Under the pieces are notes generated by a model that worked only from the letters and a program-made list of their open reading frames with translations, had not been told where the DNA came from and did no database searches. Positions 4,844 through 63,058 of a DNA stretch of 64,000 nt are shown piece after piece; position 1 is the stretch's first letter, and each line of letters opens with the position of its first letter. The DNA comes from a virus: positions 32,001-96,000 of IMG/VR virus record IMGVR_UViG_3300038468_000223; one strand, 5' to 3'. The position numbers were made by a program, and so were the translations under genes.

Positions 4844-6307
4844 ATGCCCGATCGCAGCTACTGGCAGAAGCTCGTCGACGACTACACCGAGGCGTTCAAG
4901 CGCCTCGGGCTGACCCCCACCAAGCACGCGCTGCTCCTCGCCGCCACGCCCGGCGAGTTCGAGACCAACAGCGGCAGGGCGTGGCCCGGCACGTACAACG
5001 TCGGCGCCGTGCAGGGCCGAGCGCTCACACAAGAGGAGCAGGCGAAGCTCGCCTCGGGTGAGCTGCGACCCGGCGCGCGCATCGCCGGCGACCCGGGCTA
5101 CGTGCTCCAGTACGACACGAACCCGGACAAGGGCGGCGCGAAGTACCCCGTCTGGTTCGTCGCCTTTCCCACCCAGCTCGACGGCATCCTCTACTACCTG
5201 CGCGTCCTGCTCGGCAAGGCGAAGTCGGTGGTCGTCGACCCCGCCGGGACCTTGCGCCAGCTCGCGACGGCGATGTACCTCGGCGGCTACTACCAGGGCC
5301 GTCACGCCGGCGCGCGCCCCTACTACAAGCGCGCGCTGCCGCTCACGGTGCCGGAGCAGGCCAACGTCGACGACTACACCAAGGCGCTCGAGGGGGTCTA
5401 CGCTCAGACCATCGAGCCCAACATGGGCCCCCTCATCCAAGAGGAGAAGTCTCCGATGCCGGATCCGACGCCCGCTCCCGCCCCCACCGCCTTCGCCAAG
5501 CGCCTCGCCGAGATCGCACTGGCCCACGCGCCGTGCTCCGCGCACGACCGACAGGACGTGTACGTCGACATCATCGTGCGCCCGAGCGACCGCACCGAGG
5601 CGCGGTTGCCGTACTACATCGGCAACAAGCCGCCCAGCACCTGCGGCCTGCTCGTCGAGGGCGCCCTACGCCTCGACGGGCTCACCGACCCCGAACTCGT
5701 CGACCCGTACAAGACCCCGCCCGGAGCCGTGGCGGACCTCCAGACGGTCGCCAAGCGGCACGGCGTCCTCGAGTACGGGACCCCTACGAAGCCGCCCTGC
5801 TGCGGAGACGCGATCATCATCGACGAGGTCCTCGTCGACAAGGACGGCAAGGAATACGACAACGCCCACGTGATCCTGTGCACCAGTGACGCGGCGGTCA
5901 GCGACGACGGGCTGACGTGGGCGTACGCGTCGGTCCAGGGGGGACAGTACAACCCCAGCGACAAGACCGGCGGGAGCAGCGCCGTCATGTCGTTCCCGAC
6001 GAGCACCCTCGTCAAGAAGAACGGCAGGTGGTACGCGGGCGCCGGGACGCGGTACGTGATCGCGATCTGCCGCTTCAGCCGGCTCGACTTCCCCGTCTCG
6101 CAGCAGGTCCCCGTCGCCAAGCCGGCGGAGCCGCCCGAGGAGCCGACCAAGGAGCCGGAGCCCGCGCGCGAGCCGGCGGCCGCCCCCCAGCCGAACGACG
6201 GGGCTCCCACAGGGGGGGTGAAGAAGAACGTGGTGGGCCTGGCGGCGGGGGCGTCGCTGTTCGCGCTGGTGGCGGGGGTGGTGGCGTGGGTCTGGGAGAA
6301 GTGCTGA
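4844..6307 (+). CDS. Two-domain peptidoglycan hydrolase (glucosaminidase/muramidase-like plus CHAP/NlpC-like) with C-terminal TM
   Basis: EFETNSG..YNVGAV..FVAF; STCGLLV...HV dyad; Pro/Glu linker; hydrophobic tail. Confidence 0.6.
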   Translation: MPDRSYWQKLVDDYTEAFKRLGLTPTKHALLLAATPGEFETNSGRAWPGTYNVGAVQGRALTQEEQAKLASGELRPGARIAGDPGYVLQYDTNPDKGGAKYPVWFVAFPTQLDGILYYLRVLLGKAKSVVVDPAGTLRQLATAMYLGGYYQGRHAGARPYYKRALPLTVPEQANVDDYTKALEGVYAQTIEPNMGPLIQEEKSPMPDPTPAPAPTAFAKRLAEIALAHAPCSAHDRQDVYVDIIVRPSDRTEARLPYYIGNKPPSTCGLLVEGALRLDGLTDPELVDPYKTPPGAVADLQTVAKRHGVLEYGTPTKPPCCGDAIIIDEVLVDKDGKEYDNAHVILCTSDAAVSDDGLTWAYASVQGGQYNPSDKTGGSSAVMSFPTSTLVKKNGRWYAGAGTRYVIAICRFSRLDFPVSQQVPVAKPAEPPEEPTKEPEPAREPAAAPQPNDGAPTGGVKKNVVGLAAGASLFALVAGVVAWVWEKC

Positions 6308-6518
6308 GGGGCCTAGACAGCAAGAGGGGTCGTGGGCATCATCGGTCCCGATGATGATTCGACGCCGCTCGGGGCGGGCTGGGTTCGGGACCCGGCACCG
6401 TTCCATCTAGCGGGTGCGACGCACGAACCAGACGCGATAGCGATGATTGACGGCGGCGGATAGCCGCGAGCGCGAAAGCACGCGAGGCGCCACCAGAAGC
6501 GGCGCGAAGCACACGGGA

Positions 6519-6554
6519 GGCTGCGGGCAGGGTGCCCGCGGCCTTCGGTGTTTT
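6519..6554 (+). terminator. GC-rich hairpin with T-rich tail between convergent genes
   Basis: GGCTGCGGGCA-ggg-TGCCCGCGGCC then TTCGGTGTTTT. Confidence 0.6.
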
Positions 6555-7795
6555 CACAACCCCATGGCGCTGTGCCGGACGGCCGCCTCCACCTTGGCGG
6601 CGTCGACCCCGCGGGGGTCGATCCAGAGCGACCTCGCCATGCCGAGCGTGTGACTCAGCCCGCGCCCGTGGACGACGCTCAGGTAGAGCGCCTGCGGCTT
6701 GAACCAGACCCGGATGGCCCCGTCCGGCGACGTCGCGTGCGGGACCTTCAGGTCCCGCGCGACTCGCCAGCCCTGCGCTTCGAGGTGGTTCATGACCCGC
6801 GCCTTCGCCTGCGCGAAGGTCTCGACCGGGTTCGGGAGCCCCTCGCGCAGCCGGCGCCCCTTCGCCGCCTTGTCCATCGCCTTCAGGCCCCACCAGAAGA
6901 GACCGACGGTCGCAGCGAGCGCGGCGCCGCTCCAGAAGACCGCCCCCCAGTCCGTCTTCCTCTCGATCTGCGAGCTACTCGTAGGGATCGGGCCGGTATC
7001 CGAGTAGCTCGCCCGTCGAAAAGGGCTGGAGGCCTCCGGCGTCGCCGCGAAGAGCGGCGCCAGCTCGGGCACGCCCGGCTGACGGAGGACCGTCATCTTG
7101 CCCTGGTGGCTCGCGAGCGGCGCCAGCTCCGCACTCGAGAGGACCGCCTGCAGGTCCATCGGCTGCCCGTCGACGAGGCACTGCCTGGCGACGAGGAGGC
7201 ACGTCTGGCTGTAGTCGATGTGCTTGAAGTCGTGAAACCACCCGCGCCCCTGGATCACGCGCTGCTTCGCGTCCGTGACGGACGGCTCCCACGACTTGCC
7301 GCCGAGGGTCGGCCCCTCGAAGTGCCAGCCGTAGTTCTCGGCCTTGCCGGTGGCGTACCGGAGCAAGTCGTTGTCGATGCACCAGTTCTTGCCGACCGTC
7401 CTGATGATGCCCCCGGCCGGCGTGGGCGGGAGCTTCGCGAGCTGGGCGTCGATCGTCGTGCTGTGCCTGATCATCCCGGCGCTCGAGGACGTGATCGTCT
7501 GCGTGTCGGGCGGCAGCGTCGTGGCCCGCTGCTGCCAGCCGAGGTCGACGAGCTTGGGCGTGAGCAGCGAGCACCCGAGCAGGTCGGCGATCTGCTGCTC
7601 GAGGTACGCGCTGACGTCGATGCGCACGCCTTCGATCTTGAGGGCGTCAGCGAAGACCCTAAACTCGCCGTGGTGGCCGCCGGCGTCGCTGACGACCGTC
7701 CCCCACGAGACCTCAAAGTTGCCGCCCTTGATCTGGTCGAGGACGAGCGGGGCGTACGCGGCGCTCGCGGTGTCACCGGGCCATACGATGGGCAT
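6554..7795 (-). CDS. Single-TM protein: N-terminal H-x-DYSQ domain, TM, LPNP, small basic C-terminal module
   Basis: Good codon pattern; TM AVFWSGAALAATVGLFWW. Confidence 0.75.
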   Translation of the reverse strand: MPIVWPGDTASAAYAPLVLDQIKGGNFEVSWGTVVSDAGGHHGEFRVFADALKIEGVRIDVSAYLEQQIADLLGCSLLTPKLVDLGWQQRATTLPPDTQTITSSSAGMIRHSTTIDAQLAKLPPTPAGGIIRTVGKNWCIDNDLLRYATGKAENYGWHFEGPTLGGKSWEPSVTDAKQRVIQGRGWFHDFKHIDYSQTCLLVARQCLVDGQPMDLQAVLSSAELAPLASHQGKMTVLRQPGVPELAPLFAATPEASSPFRRASYSDTGPIPTSSSQIERKTDWGAVFWSGAALAATVGLFWWGLKAMDKAAKGRRLREGLPNPVETFAQAKARVMNHLEAQGWRVARDLKVPHATSPDGAIRVWFKPQALYLSVVHGRGLSHTLGMARSLWIDPRGVDAAKVEAAVRHSAMGL

Positions 7796-7798
7796 CGC

Positions 7799-62019: not shown

Positions 62020-62021
62020 CC

Positions 62022-62669
62022 ATGCCGCTCTCCATCGATCGTTCGTACCCACGCTGGCGCCGGATGGAGCGCGACCTGACGCGCTACTACGAGGAGTGCG
62101 CGTCGAGCGCGCCGGCGAGGTTCCGCGGCAAGCGGCGCAAGAGCTACTGCGCCGGCGTGGCGTGGAAGCGCCTCAAGATGGCGGGGCGCTACCGCGACTA
62201 CCCGGGCTTCGGGCGCGCGGCGGCCGAAGGCCGCGAGAACCCCCTCCCCTCCAAGACCAAGGACGCGCTCATCGCGACCGCGGTCATCGCCGGGGGCTTC
62301 GGCCTGATCCTCTACATGATCTCGAAGCTGCCGAAGAAGGCGCCGGCTCCGCCGCAGCCCTCTCCTCTTCCCGCGACGACGCCCACGGGCATCCCGGTCG
62401 TCCTCACCGAGCCGACCTACTACGTGCACCAGCGCCTCATCGACAGCCTCGACACGCAGGCGATGCGGTGCACCCTCCCCATGTTCGTATTCGCCGGGCC
62501 GAAGTCCGCGGCCGACGCCCTCGCGCGCCAGCTCACGACGCGCGCGCCGATCGGGGGGAGCGGCATGGTCGCCGTCTCGGTCGCCTCGCCGGCCGTCGAG
62601 CCGACGTGCAACTGGCGCCGGGTCTGCCTCGCCGACGGCTCGTGCGTCGGCGCGGTCGGTCTCGGCTGA
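62022..62669 (+). CDS. ChaB-like module, RENP, TM, C-terminal domain ending GAVGLG
   Basis: CAGVAWKR..GRYRDYP shared with 49480. Confidence 0.7.
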   Translation: MPLSIDRSYPRWRRMERDLTRYYEECASSAPARFRGKRRKSYCAGVAWKRLKMAGRYRDYPGFGRAAAEGRENPLPSKTKDALIATAVIAGGFGLILYMISKLPKKAPAPPQPSPLPATTPTGIPVVLTEPTYYVHQRLIDSLDTQAMRCTLPMFVFAGPKSAADALARQLTTRAPIGGSGMVAVSVASPAVEPTCNWRRVCLADGSCVGAVGLG

Positions 62670-62680
62670 AGGAGGTCCTC

Positions 62681-63058
62681 GTGGTCGGCAAGGTCGTCGC
62701 GGCAGCAGCGATCGGGGGCGTCACCGGGTGGCTGCTCGAGAACCTGCTGTTCGGGCGGCGCAACTCGAACCTGTTCGGCGGCCGGGAGGTGCCCTTCCTG
62801 CCGGTCTACGCCGTGGGGGCGGCCGCGGTCGTCGCCGCCGCCCCGCACCTGCGCGAGCTGCCCGCGGTCGCGCGCGCGGGCGTCTACGCGGGCGGCCTCT
62901 CGCTCCTCGAACTCGCGGCCTGCGGCGCGGACCGCGAGCTTGGCCCCGCGTCCTGGGACTACGGCAACGGGGGCTGCGTAGACGTCCCCCACGCCATCAC
63001 CTGGGGCGCGCTCGGCCTCGCCCTCGACGCCCTCACGACCAGTGAGCCTCGACGTTAG
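62681..63058 (+). CDS. Membrane protein, DUF975/putative ABC-permease-like
   Basis: GWLLE, PFLPVY..G, LE, WDY. Confidence 0.6.
   Translation: MVGKVVAAAAIGGVTGWLLENLLFGRRNSNLFGGREVPFLPVYAVGAAAVVAAAPHLRELPAVARAGVYAGGLSLLELAACGADRELGPASWDYGNGGCVDVPHAITWGALGLALDALTTSEPRR

What the first reader, a model, noticed from the sequence alone, without database searches (positions are those of the whole stretch)
6193..63057. Asymmetric ~18-bp DNA motif scattered genome-wide, including inside enzyme genes
Seen: three exact CAGTGACCCCCGTCGTTC copies (10443, 18169, 55291) and nine variants (23242, 30600, 37385, 48984, 63040; minus 6193, 11009, 21150, 30026), often preceded by AC-rich sequence. Copies occur on both strands and in different frames, in linker-like parts of Prim-Pol, UvrD and the polymerase ORF, so they are not a peptide motif. 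Three supply a gene's TGA stop, one abuts the 3' end of tRNA-like RNA 1, and one lies 3 nt upstream of TTGACA ahead of the Pth2 cassette. Inference: protein-binding sites for genome-wide repression (stoperator-like), partitioning/condensation or packaging.
Basis: partly seen in the sequence, partly recalled or inferred. Interest (0 to 1): 0.7.

Follow-up and report, generated by a model that had tools for sequence, protein, structure and literature searches.

The report
Evenly spaced phage DNA recognition motif
A 105-kb uncultured wetland phage carries 32 copies of one 22-26-base asymmetric DNA word, 16 on each strand at unusually regular spacing, and the word most likely marks where the phage's own sequence-specific primase starts new DNA strands, though nothing has been tested at the bench.

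Summary
All 12 listed copies exist, and a two-block matrix finds 32 arms in the circular 105.4-kb genome, against 0.06 in shuffles and 0 in 1.3 Mb of relatives' DNA.

The element is a C/A-rich tract ending in C[A/T]GTG, a 2-4-nt spacer, then CC[C/T]CG[A/T]CGTTC.
- It lies in all frames and both orientations relative to genes (18:14).
- It sits at gene junctions or disordered linkers and overrides codon bias.
- There are 16 arms per strand, each set regularly spaced at about 6.6 kb (CV 0.28 and 0.43).
- Orientation alternates. Five inverted pairs lie about 0.55 kb apart, and three loci are back-to-back palindromes without U-tracts.

The stoperator reading fails the orientation test. No ParB, sigma factor, Y1 transposase or serine recombinase was detected, and the T7-type RNA polymerase search was uninformative.

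The phage's Prim-Pol folds like the pRN1 ORF904, RepB' and NrS-1 primases (catalytic domain plus helix bundle), with an added OB fold. Those enzymes read template GTG or long ssi signals. A motif-compatible peptide sits in the primase's own linker in the closest relative, and three complete relatives without a full-length homologue of this primase lack the motif.

Best reading (about 0.4): private strand-specific priming signals. This scan has noted similar strand-alternating, evenly spaced words in other phages.

The parts
2741..2766 (+). motif arm (spacer CAAG), inside the SNF2 helicase ORF at aa 74-82, before the SNF2 domain
   Evidence: 32.6 bits
6193..6218 (-). motif arm (spacer GGAG), antisense in a 487-aa ORF at aa 450-458
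   Evidence: 30.8 bits
10437..10460 (+). motif arm (exact 18-mer). It supplies the TGA stop of a 69-aa ORF and abuts the tRNA 3' end on the other strand. Left arm of the inverted pair around the tRNA-tRNA-Pth2 cassette.
11009..11033 (-). motif arm, intergenic, 3 nt before TTGACA. Right arm of the same inverted pair (572 bp apart).
16712..16737 (-). weaker arm (21.9 bits) at the start of the AAA_25 helicase ORF, in the divergent region next to the NikA-like RHH gene
18163..18186 (+). motif arm (exact 18-mer) that supplies the TGA stop of a 94-aa ORF
21150..21175 (-). motif arm (spacer GGAG) inside the Prim-Pol gene, coding RTSGLPLVG in the disordered linker at aa 182-190. The matching peptide in relative P0100 is RTTRLPLGG.
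23236..23259 (+). motif arm inside a 189-aa ORF at aa 91-99
30026..30049 (-). motif arm, antisense in the UvrD-like helicase at aa 441-449. Left arm of an inverted pair (568 bp apart).
30594..30617 (+). motif arm that supplies the TGA stop of a 50-aa ORF, 14 nt before the next ATG. Right arm of that pair.
36232..36257 (-). motif arm (spacer GGAG) at codons 7-15 of an 88-aa ORF
37378..37403 (+). motif arm in the polymerase ORF at aa 124-132, directly after a CxxC..CxxC zinc-ribbon mini-module. In the orthologue P0132 this module sits at a different place.
42954..42978 (+). weak arm (20.2 bits) in a 623-aa ORF at aa 268-276
48978..49002 (+). left arm of a back-to-back palindrome, 1 nt after the stop of the 712-aa ORF
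49003..49028 (-). right arm of the same palindrome. There is no U-tract after it.
55285..55308 (+). motif arm (exact 18-mer) inside a 461-aa ORF at aa 284-292
61385..61408 (-). motif arm between a stop and the next start. Its far end supplies AGGAGG.
63034..63057 (+). motif arm ending GTTA. It supplies a TAG stop and overlaps the next gene's ribosome-binding site.
20606..21757 (+). Prim-Pol gene, the proposed reader: AEP catalytic domain (aa 1-170), disordered linker (171-189), helix-bundle domain (about 198-271) and a C-terminal OB-like beta domain (272-383)
16638..17705 (+). AAA_25 (RepA/DnaB-like) ATPase, the likely replicative helicase partner

Best explanation
The motif is a phage-private, strand-specific signal read on single-stranded template DNA by the phage's own primase. 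That primase has a Prim-Pol catalytic domain, a helix-bundle domain and an OB fold.

Proposed mechanism (inferred):
- The helix bundle docks on the invariant GTG of block 1.
- The OB-like C-terminal domain holds block 2 (CC[C/T]CG[A/T]CGTTC), 2-4 nt further 3'.
- The catalytic domain starts a G-rich primer on the C-rich, G-poor, unstructured tract just 5' of GTG.

Sixteen such pads per strand, about 6.6 kb apart, would let forks moving in either direction re-prime the lagging strand. Inverted pairs and back-to-back palindromes would allow starts on both strands at one locus, as at an origin.

Shown: the motif family, its statistics, the fold of the primase, and its presence or absence in the relatives examined. 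Inferred: who reads the motif and what happens there.
For: 1. The signal is at DNA level, not protein or transcription level.
- It occurs in all frames and both orientations relative to genes (18:14).
- It overrides codon bias.
- No Rfam family matches it.

2. Each strand carries 16 arms at regular spacing.
- The + strand has CV 0.28 (P below 5e-6) and the - strand CV 0.43 (P=4e-4).
- The result holds without the 3 weak arms (P about 4e-4 each).
- The largest gap counting either strand is 6.9 kb (P=5e-4).
- Arms are placed in ORF linkers where no gene junction is available.

3. GTG is invariant in all 32 arms, followed by A or G in 23 of 32 (P=0.01). The 12 nt 5' of GTG are 57% C and 11% G. 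Twelve of 25 single arms lie in windows less folded than 90% of the genome.

4. The Prim-Pol model (pLDDT 88) best matches three primases across both the catalytic and helix-bundle domains.
- pRN1 ORF904: 3m1m at E 1e-11, and 9aam.
- RSF1010 RepB': 3h20.
- NrS-1 N300.
- Its C-terminal domain matches OB-fold ssDNA binders (PrgE, RPA, PriB).

5. Those enzymes are sequence-specific.
- ORF904 and NrS-1 need template 5'-GTG-3', with GTGA and GTGG best. They start the primer at the first to fourth base 5' of it (PMC8718748).
- RepB' starts on two 40-nt inverted repeats, ssiA and ssiB (PMC8567376).

6. Evidence from relatives.
- The arm in the primase's own hypervariable linker is matched by RTTRLPLGG in the 61%-identical orthologue P0100. 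Its best-case back-translation scores 32.3 bits, against a usual protein-wide maximum of 15-21.
- More distant homologues carry RGSLVV(P) there, which is compatible with a forward-oriented copy.
- Three complete relatives have no full-length homologue of this primase (G004 has only a weak partial match). They have 0 arms of 20 bits or more in 317 kb.
Against: - Spacing of 6.6 kb is long for Okazaki fragments.
- Known Prim-Pols need only GTG, so a 22-26-nt word is far more specific than any shown so far.
- The five inverted pairs 514-572 bp apart (P=3e-4) are not predicted by this model.
- The link between spacer class and strand is not predicted either (AC 5+/1-, GGAG 0+/5-, CC 0+/3-).
- In the polymerase gene the motif travels with a zinc-ribbon mini-module that sits elsewhere in the orthologue. 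That looks like mobility.
- Evidence from relatives is by peptide proxy only, because no DNA of close relatives could be fetched.
- Best-case back-translation can reach 25-27 bits by chance.
- The 'unstructured' result partly follows from the motif's own base composition.
Confidence: 0.4

Rival explanations
1. The motif is a set of docking sites on duplex DNA for another phage-encoded, probably monomeric two-module DNA-binding protein. Candidates are the XRE-type regulator, the wHTH protein, the NikA-like RHH protein and the Fis-type HTH protein. The protein would organise or silence the genome, for example by looping, condensation or roadblocks, in the manner of stoperators or P1 C1 operators.
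For: - The site is asymmetric and bipartite. GTG and CGTT are about one helical turn apart, as in the two-domain stoperator repressor complex.
- The only perfect palindrome lies about 300 bp upstream of an XRE-family gene.
- One arm lies 14 nt before the wHTH gene and one lies upstream of the RHH gene.
- Among non-palindromic intergenic or stop-overlapping arms, about 9 are sense and 2 antisense.
- Inverted pairs about 0.55 kb apart fit protein-bridged loops.
- The phage has an integrase-type gene.
Against: - Overall orientation against transcription is 18:14 and 10 arms lie deep in ORFs.
- The 2-4-bp variable spacer is awkward for a rigid duplex interface.
- The three palindromes have arm-to-arm offsets that differ by about 9 bp, so there is no fixed dimer geometry.
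- This model does not predict regular spacing on each strand separately.
- No ParB was found.
Confidence: 0.25
2. The motif marks module boundaries. It would be either a recombination site for the phage's Xer-like tyrosine recombinase, as pdif sites bound dif modules, or the end of a small mobile element. Arms would then mark where genes and domains were joined or inserted.
For: - Orientation alternates in 24 of 32 steps (P=0.0035), as C and D dif modules must (PMC13141974).
- Arms sit at gene and domain junctions.
- Inverted pairs enclose accessory cargo: tRNA-tRNA-Pth2; tRNA-Ser, tRNA-Gln and an ORF; a Cys-rich ORF of 55.5% GC; and a 77.7% GC gene.
- A Xer-like recombinase is encoded.
- The zinc-ribbon-plus-motif module lies at different places in two orthologous polymerases.
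- The palindrome after the 712-aa gene is absent from relative L231.
Against: - The site has no dyad-related arms, and spacer length varies between 2 and 4 bp, which does not suit strand exchange.
- There are no target-site duplications.
- The interiors of the pairs are unrelated to each other.
- Composition does not jump at arms more than at ordinary gene junctions (P=0.1-0.6).
- No Y1 transposase or serine recombinase was found.
- No joints at arms appear in two metagenome runs, though only contigs were available.
- Recombination between arms inside essential genes would destroy those genes.
- Regular spacing is not explained.
Confidence: 0.17
3. The motif marks sites of strand-specific DNA processing read along the duplex. 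It would be either a nick-associated motif, as in T5, phiKMV-like and tf-like phages, or a Chi-like signal for an end-processing helicase-nuclease.
For: - Dispersed asymmetric consensus words at nicks are known in phages. The tf word TACT/RTGMC even resembles block 1, and one arm contains TACTGTGAC.
- An HNH endonuclease gene lies 84 nt from an arm.
- The phage encodes a UvrD-like helicase and a PD-(D/E)XK nuclease.
- Regular spacing on each strand and alternation suit any machine that tracks in one direction.
Against: - All known nick motifs lie on one strand only. Here the count is 16:16.
- Chi words are 5-8 nt (my knowledge), not 22-26.
- No physical data exist, because only contigs and no raw reads were available.
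Confidence: 0.1
4. The motif acts at RNA level. It would be a terminator or stabiliser half-element, or long-range 5'/3' pairing of inverted arms in polycistronic mRNA creating processing sites.
For: - Three palindromes fold strongly (-33 to -55 kcal/mol) just downstream of genes.
- Forward arms favour gene 3' ends and reverse arms favour gene 5' ends.
Against: - Nearly half of the arms are antisense.
- Single arms are unusually unstructured.
- The palindromes lack U-tracts, while nearby terminator-like hairpins have them.
- Paired arms show no matching spacer variants.
- No Rfam family matches.
Confidence: 0.05

Closest known systems
RepB' primase of IncQ plasmid RSF1010 with its ssiA/ssiB initiation signals
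   Same: - It is a Prim-Pol-type catalytic domain plus a helix-bundle domain, and 3h20 is among the top fold matches.
- It starts DNA synthesis only on long specific single-strand signals.
- Those signals occur as an inverted pair on opposite strands (PMC8567376).
   Different: - ssiA and ssiB are two 40-nt hairpin-containing sites confined to oriV. Here there are 32 unstructured 22-26-nt arms spread over the whole genome at regular spacing.
- The phage enzyme has an extra OB-like domain.
Template GTG recognition by pRN1 ORF904 and phage NrS-1 primase-polymerases
   Same: - These are the best fold matches (3m1m, 9aam and NrS-1 N300).
- GTG is invariant in the motif, with A or G preferred next.
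- Those enzymes are reported to initiate 1-4 bases 5' of GTG, with some flexibility. That fits a variable spacer (PMC8718748).
   Different: - Those enzymes need only 3-4 (or 8) bases, and no genome-wide spaced array is described for them.
- Block 2 (11 nt) has no counterpart.
Stoperators of Cluster A mycobacteriophages (L5 gp71-type repressor sites)
   Same: More than 20 asymmetric sites are spread over a phage genome, often at gene junctions, and are read by a two-domain monomer (PMC9283540).
   Different: - Stoperators are 13-mers whose orientation follows transcription, and they lie in short intergenic spaces.
- Here the sites are 22-26 nt, orientation is 18:14, and 10 arms lie deep in ORFs.
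Nick-associated motifs of T5-, phiKMV- and tf-like phages
   Same: These are phage-private consensus words, mostly inside genes, whose function is unknown. The tf word resembles block 1.
   Different: They lie on one strand only, are 9-20 nt long, have 4-14 copies, and are not evenly spread.
pdif sites and dif modules of Acinetobacter plasmids
   Same: Asymmetric sites of about 25-28 bp alternate in orientation and bound small accessory modules, and a Xer-type recombinase is present.
   Different: - pdif has two dyad-related 11-bp arms and a fixed 6-bp spacer.
- The phage motif has neither, and it lies inside essential genes.
DNA uptake sequences (DUS/USS) and Chi sites of bacteria (my knowledge, not tested here)
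   Same: These are species-private oriented words on both strands and in any reading frame. They are evenly spread, and some occur as inverted pairs after genes.
   Different: They are bacterial, 5-12 nt long, present in hundreds to thousands of copies, and read by competence or RecBCD-type machinery.
Replication origins inside the initiator's own gene (lambda ori in gene O; my knowledge)
   Same: A copy of the recognised DNA lies in the stretch that codes the flexible inter-domain linker of the replication protein.
   Different: In lambda the iterons are clustered at one place. Here that copy is one of 32.

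Membership tests
Primase initiation signals of Prim-Pol + helix-bundle primases (ssi / GTG type) | A primase with an AEP catalytic domain plus a helix-bundle domain is encoded by the same element | tested here: met
   Pfam Prim-Pol E 2e-32. The model has pLDDT 88. Foldseek matches 3m1m at E 1e-11, plus 9aam, 3h20 and NrS-1 N300, over about 300 columns.
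Primase initiation signals of Prim-Pol + helix-bundle primases (ssi / GTG type) | The site contains the template triplet GTG (A or G next is preferred) with a copyable tract on its 5' side | tested here: met
   GTG is present in 32 of 32 arms. The next base is A or G in 23 of 32 (P=0.01). The 5' tract is 57% C and 11% G. The requirement is taken from PMC8718748.
Primase initiation signals of Prim-Pol + helix-bundle primases (ssi / GTG type) | Strand-specific, present on both strands so that both fork directions are served | tested here: met
   16 + and 16 - arms, each set regularly spaced.
Primase initiation signals of Prim-Pol + helix-bundle primases (ssi / GTG type) | Primers actually start at the site, and the primase binds the single-stranded motif | not testable with these tools
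   This needs biochemistry or nascent-strand mapping.
Primase initiation signals of Prim-Pol + helix-bundle primases (ssi / GTG type) | The motif co-occurs with the primase family across relatives | tested here: inconclusive
   Motif-compatible peptides occur in the linker of P0100 (32.3 bits best case), P0099 and P0102. Three complete relatives have no full-length homologue of this primase (G004 has a weak partial match at E 1e-5) and have 0 arms. No DNA of primase-bearing relatives could be read.
Cluster A stoperators | Orientation of the asymmetric site follows the direction of transcription | tested here: not met
   18 sense against 14 antisense. The definition is from PMC9283540.
Cluster A stoperators | Sites lie in promoters or short intergenic spaces | tested here: not met
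   10 of 32 arms lie deep in ORFs. About 17 overlap or lie within 25 nt of a start or stop codon, and 5 are intergenic.
Cluster A stoperators | Bound by an immunity repressor with an HTH plus a stoperator domain | not tested
   An XRE-type HTH protein exists, but no homology test against gp71-type repressors was run.
Nick-associated phage motifs | All copies lie on one DNA strand | tested here: not met
   The count is 16:16. The definition is from PMC3517423 and PMC11780129.
Nick-associated phage motifs | A physical single-strand break lies in the word | not testable with these tools
   Both runs that hold the phage are kept as contigs only.
pdif / Xer recombination sites | Two dyad-related 11-bp arms around a fixed 6-8-bp central region | tested here: not met
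   The blocks are unrelated to each other, and the spacer is 2, 3 or 4 nt.
pdif / Xer recombination sites | Neighbouring sites alternate in orientation and bound modules | tested here: met
   24 of 32 switches, P=0.0035. Cargo lies between inverted pairs.
REP/BIME elements | Each unit is itself an imperfect palindrome, lies outside genes, and has a RAYT (Y1) transposase partner | tested here: not met
   Single arms are less folded than background. Many arms lie inside genes. PF01797 is absent, and the control search rang in 6 genomes.
Phage RNA-polymerase or sigma-factor promoters | Copies point with the genes and a phage RNAP or sigma factor is encoded | tested here: not met
   Orientation is 18:14. 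No Sigma70 r2 or r4 was found. The T7-type RNAP search found nothing, but its control did not ring, so that part is inconclusive.
Self-targets of the phage's own Cas12f-like CRISPR array | A spacer matches the motif | tested here: not met
   No spacer matches any arm.

The most novel reading that the evidence does not exclude
A phage writes a private priming code into its chromosome. Long (22-26 nt) bipartite landing pads for its own Prim-Pol/helix-bundle/OB primase are kept about every 6.6 kb on each strand, even through essential genes, with a conserved copy in the primase gene's own linker. Lagging-strand and origin-type initiation would then be hard-wired to phage DNA and closed to host or competitor DNA. 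Similar strand-alternating, evenly spaced words noted by this scan in other phages would be further cases of the same principle.
Probability: 0.3. Interest if true: 0.85.

Novelty: new variant of a known kind. Interest (0 to 1): 0.68.

Why it matters
If the reading holds, primer placement on a viral chromosome can be dictated by a long, genome-wide, evenly spaced sequence code rather than by frequent 3-4-nt words. That would be a new way for a virus to tie replication to its own DNA.

It would also explain why such words override codon usage and sit in protein linkers. It gives a direct biochemical test: one 383-aa enzyme, one 25-nt oligonucleotide and two mutants.

If priming is wrong, the statistics still define a class of phage-private DNA signal that no described system covers (stoperators, nick motifs, pdif, DUS/Chi). 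Its features are equal numbers on both strands, regular spacing per strand and alternating orientation. The scan's earlier notes suggest that this class recurs in unrelated phages.

Tried and rejected
- **CRISPR self-targets.** The spacers of the phage's Cas12f-like array do not match the motif.
- **Host repeat or shared mobile element.**
  - The exact 18-mer gives 7 single hits in JGI metagenomes, with no shared proteins.
- **MITE copies.** The interiors of the inverted pairs share nothing but the arms.
- **Hairpins or terminators.** Single arms are unstructured, and the palindromes lack U-tracts.
- **Strict periodicity.** The periodogram is not significant (P=0.5).
- **Compositional breakpoints at arms.** Not significant against ordinary gene junctions.
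- **Analogous motifs in relatives.**
  - De novo searches were too insensitive, and even the phage's own motif was not ranked.
  - The only clear find was an unrelated palindrome in G001.
  - A look-alike CAGTGAC at the syntenic junction of L232 is a single copy and probably chance.
- **Sequencing runs.**
  - Two wetland DNA runs hold the phage, and one may be its source.
  - Only contigs are kept, and the sequence is identical in both.
  - The listed joints have 20-24-nt sides and lie away from the arms, so they are probably from other organisms.
  - No RNA holder was listed.
- **Closed or empty tools.**
  - The search for related loci with the primase alignment found nothing in IMG/VR.
  - The phage collection holds no close primase homologue.
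- **Structural-region proteins.** Ten proteins of the structural region gave no Pfam hit among those searched, and only one PHROG hit, a DNA-repair family.

Full report
**Setting**

The window is bases 32001-96000 of a single 105,511-bp IMG/VR virus record. The record has 67.2% GC.
- A 127-bp terminal overlap, and a GH25 lysozyme gene split over the ends, show a circularly closed assembly of about 105.4 kb.
- Genes were called roughly by third-position GC. Coordinates of starts are approximate.
- Genome coordinate = window coordinate + 32000.

Yes.
- The exact 18-mer occurs three times. With up to 3 mismatches there are 7 hits against 0.14 expected.
- Aligning the copies shows a two-block element:
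  - a C/A-rich tract ending in C[A/T]GTG;
  - a spacer of 2 nt (11-12 copies), 3 nt (7-8 copies) or 4 nt (9-10 copies);
  - then CC[C/T]CG[A/T]CGTTC.
- A matrix built on these blocks separates 32 arms (20-33 bits) from everything else (12 bits or less).
- Shuffled genomes give 0.06 arms. The 1.31 Mb of loci from relatives give none. Three complete related genomes give none.
- Arms outside the window lie at genome 2845+, 3372-, 9352-, 9866+, 14392-, 20699+, 21412-, 24983-, 25515+, 27082+, 27113-, 31619-, 101974+ and 102810-.

**At what level is it selected?**

The evidence points to DNA, not protein or transcription.
- Arms occur in all three frames in both orientations.
- Codons inside arms have 24% A/T at the third position against 8.8% genome-wide (P=2e-9).
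- Relative to gene direction, 18 arms are sense and 14 antisense.
- About 17 arms overlap or lie within 25 nt of a start or stop codon. Four genes end CAG/CTG-TGA inside an arm, and three begin ATG-AAC-G in a reversed arm. Five arms are intergenic and 10 lie deep in ORFs.
- The deep ones sit in linkers:
  - Prim-Pol aa 182-190, within the only disordered segment of its model;
  - the polymerase, between DUF4326 and YAcAr;
  - SNF2, before the helicase domain;
  - UvrD, just before the segment that aligns with PcrA 552-580.
- Single arms are not hairpins. Twelve of 25 lie in windows less folded than 90% of random genome windows.
- Only three loci are palindromes of two arms (genome 9866, 27082/27113 and 80978/81003). 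Arm-to-arm offsets differ by about 9 bp, and there are no U-tracts. Terminator-like hairpins with T-tracts lie nearby.
- No Rfam family matches.

**Spatial order (new in this stage)**

- Taking both strands together, the largest gap is 6.9 kb (P=5e-4).
- Taken strand by strand, the 16 + arms have gaps mostly of 5-8 kb (CV 0.28, P below 5e-6). The 16 - arms have CV 0.43 (P=4e-4). Dropping the three weak arms keeps P near 4e-4.
- Same-strand arms are never closer than 1.6 kb. Opposite-strand arms often pair: five neighbours are 514-572 bp apart (P=3e-4).
- Orientation switches in 24 of 32 steps (P=0.0035).
- There is no phase-coherent periodicity.
- Some pairs enclose accessory cargo:
  - two tRNA-like genes plus a Pth2-like gene;
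  - tRNA-Ser, tRNA-Gln and an ORF;
  - a Cys-rich ORF of 55.5% GC;
  - a gene of 77.7% GC.
- In general, composition does not jump at arms more than at other gene junctions. The interiors of the pairs are unrelated.
- Spacer classes are tied to strand: AC 5+/1-, GGAG 0+/5-, CC 0+/3-. I cannot explain this.

**Where else does it occur?**

- No contig of IMG/VR, no listed GTDB stretch and no JGI metagenome stretch carries more than one copy. The phage's own record is excluded by the tools.
- The phage has many relatives by its 444-aa major structural protein. IMG/VR holds only relatives with 43-52% identity, and they lack the motif.
I therefore used their proteins as proxies.
- **Primase linker.**
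  - This linker is hypervariable in length and sequence across 20 homologues.
  - The closest homologue, P0100 (61% identical), reads RTTRLPLGG where this phage reads RTSGLPLVG.
  - Choosing codons freely, that peptide can encode an arm of 32.3 bits, equal to a real site.
  - Protein-wide maxima in most homologues are 15-21 bits, and the worst chance case is 25 bits.
- **Weaker matches in the same linker.**
  - P0099 gives 25.8 bits.
  - Several 45-49% homologues carry RGSLVV(P), compatible with a forward-oriented arm (27.1 bits in P0102).
  - These weaker values are only suggestive.
- **Polymerase.**
  - The orthologue from the same 75.6-kb contig (63% identical) lacks this phage's zinc-ribbon-plus-motif segment at aa 98-133.
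  - It carries a homologous segment ending ILGASLVVP about 130 residues later.
  - There the motif has moved together with a mini-module.

**Who could read it?**

- Found in the genome:
  - a Xer-like tyrosine recombinase;
  - an XRE-family regulator about 300 bp from the perfect palindrome;
  - a Fis-type HTH protein;
  - a NikA-like RHH protein;
  - an HNH endonuclease 84 nt from an arm.
- Not detected: ParB, Sigma70 r2/r4, Y1 transposase and serine recombinase. The T7-type RNA polymerase search was uninformative because its control did not ring.
- The Prim-Pol protein folds with high confidence into four parts:
  - a catalytic domain;
  - a disordered linker, which is where the motif lies;
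  - a five-helix bundle;
  - a beta domain.
- Its best structural matches are pRN1 ORF904 (3m1m, 9aam), RSF1010 RepB' (3h20) and NrS-1 N300, across both the catalytic and helix-bundle parts. The beta domain matches OB-fold single-strand binders (PrgE, RPA, PriB).

**What is known about those enzymes**

- ORF904 and NrS-1 need template 5'-GTG-3', and GTGA and GTGG work best.
- They begin the primer at the first to fourth base 5' of the triplet (PMC8718748).
- RepB' starts replication on two 40-nt inverted repeats, ssiA and ssiB (PMC8567376).

**Synthesis**

The priming reading accounts for the following:
- the invariant GTG, followed by A or G in 23 of 32 arms, and the C-rich, G-poor, unfolded tract on its 5' side;
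- the second conserved block at a flexible distance, which suits a second single-strand-binding module;
- equal numbers and regular spacing on each strand separately, and indifference to genes;
- a copy kept in the primase gene's own linker, as lambda keeps ori in gene O (my knowledge);
- absence from three complete relatives that lack a full-length homologue of this primase (G004 has only a weak partial match).

On this reading, inverted pairs and palindromes would be places where both strands can be primed, as at ssiA/ssiB.

It leaves open the 0.55-kb pair distance, the strand-tied spacer classes, the long spacing compared with usual Okazaki fragments, and the moving zinc-ribbon module.

**Confidence in the readings**

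| Reading | Confidence |
|---|---|
| Priming signals for the phage's own primase | about 0.4 |
| Duplex-binding organiser or regulator | 0.25 |
| Recombination or mobile-module boundary | 0.17 |
| Nick or Chi-like processing | 0.1 |
| RNA-level role | 0.05 |

**Comparison with known systems**

| System | Shared with this motif | Where it fails |
|---|---|---|
| Stoperators | many asymmetric sites across a phage genome | orientation and position tests |
| Nick motifs | phage-private words inside genes | they lie on one strand only |
| pdif sites | alternating orientation, modules between sites | arm symmetry and fixed spacer |
| REP elements | dispersed repeats | hairpin and RAYT tests |
| PeSL cassettes | repeats flanking accessory genes | they are promoter plus stem-loop units (abstract of PMC2839356), while this motif is neither |
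| Primase signals (GTG words, ssiA/ssiB) | closest mechanistic relatives | they are either 3-8-nt words or two origin-confined sites |

I therefore file the motif as a new variant of a known kind.

**Earlier notes of this scan**

My count agrees and extends it.
- Notes on other phages describe strand-alternating, evenly spaced private words. One proposes primase start sites (e1-5625135). That note prompted my per-strand analysis and the primase test, so the idea is not independent of it.

Noticed in passing
L267:11590-15790 (genome 11.6-15.8 kb): A second repeat family has five same-strand copies of a hairpin, GGCGAGCC-(GNGA)-GGCTCGCC, followed by CGTCGAA. Most lie upstream of small early-region ORFs, and one directly abuts the arm at genome 14392. 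It shares CCCGTCG with block 2 of the motif.
   Followed up: partly
genome 9795-9817, 9820-9842 and reverse at 68296-68318 (window 36296-36318): An exact 23-mer is present twice in tandem after the 77.7% GC gene, and once inverted near the arm at window 36232.
   Followed up: no
window 37010-40240: The polymerase is a five-part fusion: DUF4326, a YAcAr/SLOG domain, a UDG-like domain, a 3'-5' exonuclease and family A polymerase. A CxxC..CxxC zinc-ribbon insert (aa about 98-123) sits at a different inter-domain position in the 63%-identical orthologue P0132.
   Followed up: partly
window 20606-21757: The Prim-Pol carries a C-terminal OB-fold-like domain (aa 272-383) after the helix bundle. I did not find this architecture among the solved primases that matched.
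   Followed up: partly
G001 (IMG/VR relative behind L231; L278-L281): This complete 79.6-kb relative lacks the motif. It carries about 27-30 copies of the 12-bp palindrome GAAAACGTTTTC (about 1-3 expected), mostly inside long ORFs and with random spacing.
   Followed up: partly
window 10461-10614 and L269:2133-6514: There are two tRNA-like genes, one with anticodon TTA (called 'Stop'), next to a Pth2-like gene. There is also an array of 21 tRNA genes, including one called SeC (anticodon TCA).
   Followed up: no
genome 2869-3371 and 9377-9865 (L267): Two segments of about 0.5 kb between inverted arms have atypical composition. One is a Cys-rich 113-aa ORF at 55.5% GC, and the other is a 140-aa ORF at 77.7% GC, against 67% for the genome.
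   Followed up: partly
window 40356-53613: Ten proteins of the structural region were searched, including the 444-aa protein with about 97 relatives. None of those searched in Pfam gave a hit, and only one PHROG hit appeared (a DNA-repair family). The virion module is of an undescribed kind.
   Followed up: no
genome 29882-30535 and 33744-34280 (window 1744-2280): Two paralogous genes (298 and 262 aa) share 80-93% identical stretches about 3.9 kb apart.
   Followed up: no
L268:6458-6778 (-) and genome 27082-27137: An XRE-family HTH gene has a basic C-terminal tail. It lies about 300 bp downstream of the only perfect two-arm palindrome, in a 670-bp non-coding stretch. This could be an origin or a control region.
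   Followed up: partly
window 25108-28299 and L269:8282-8725: The phage encodes a long ThyX-like protein, a dNMP kinase, an HD-domain protein, a dCMP deaminase and two DNA methyltransferases. Together these suggest modified bases in the phage DNA.
   Followed up: no
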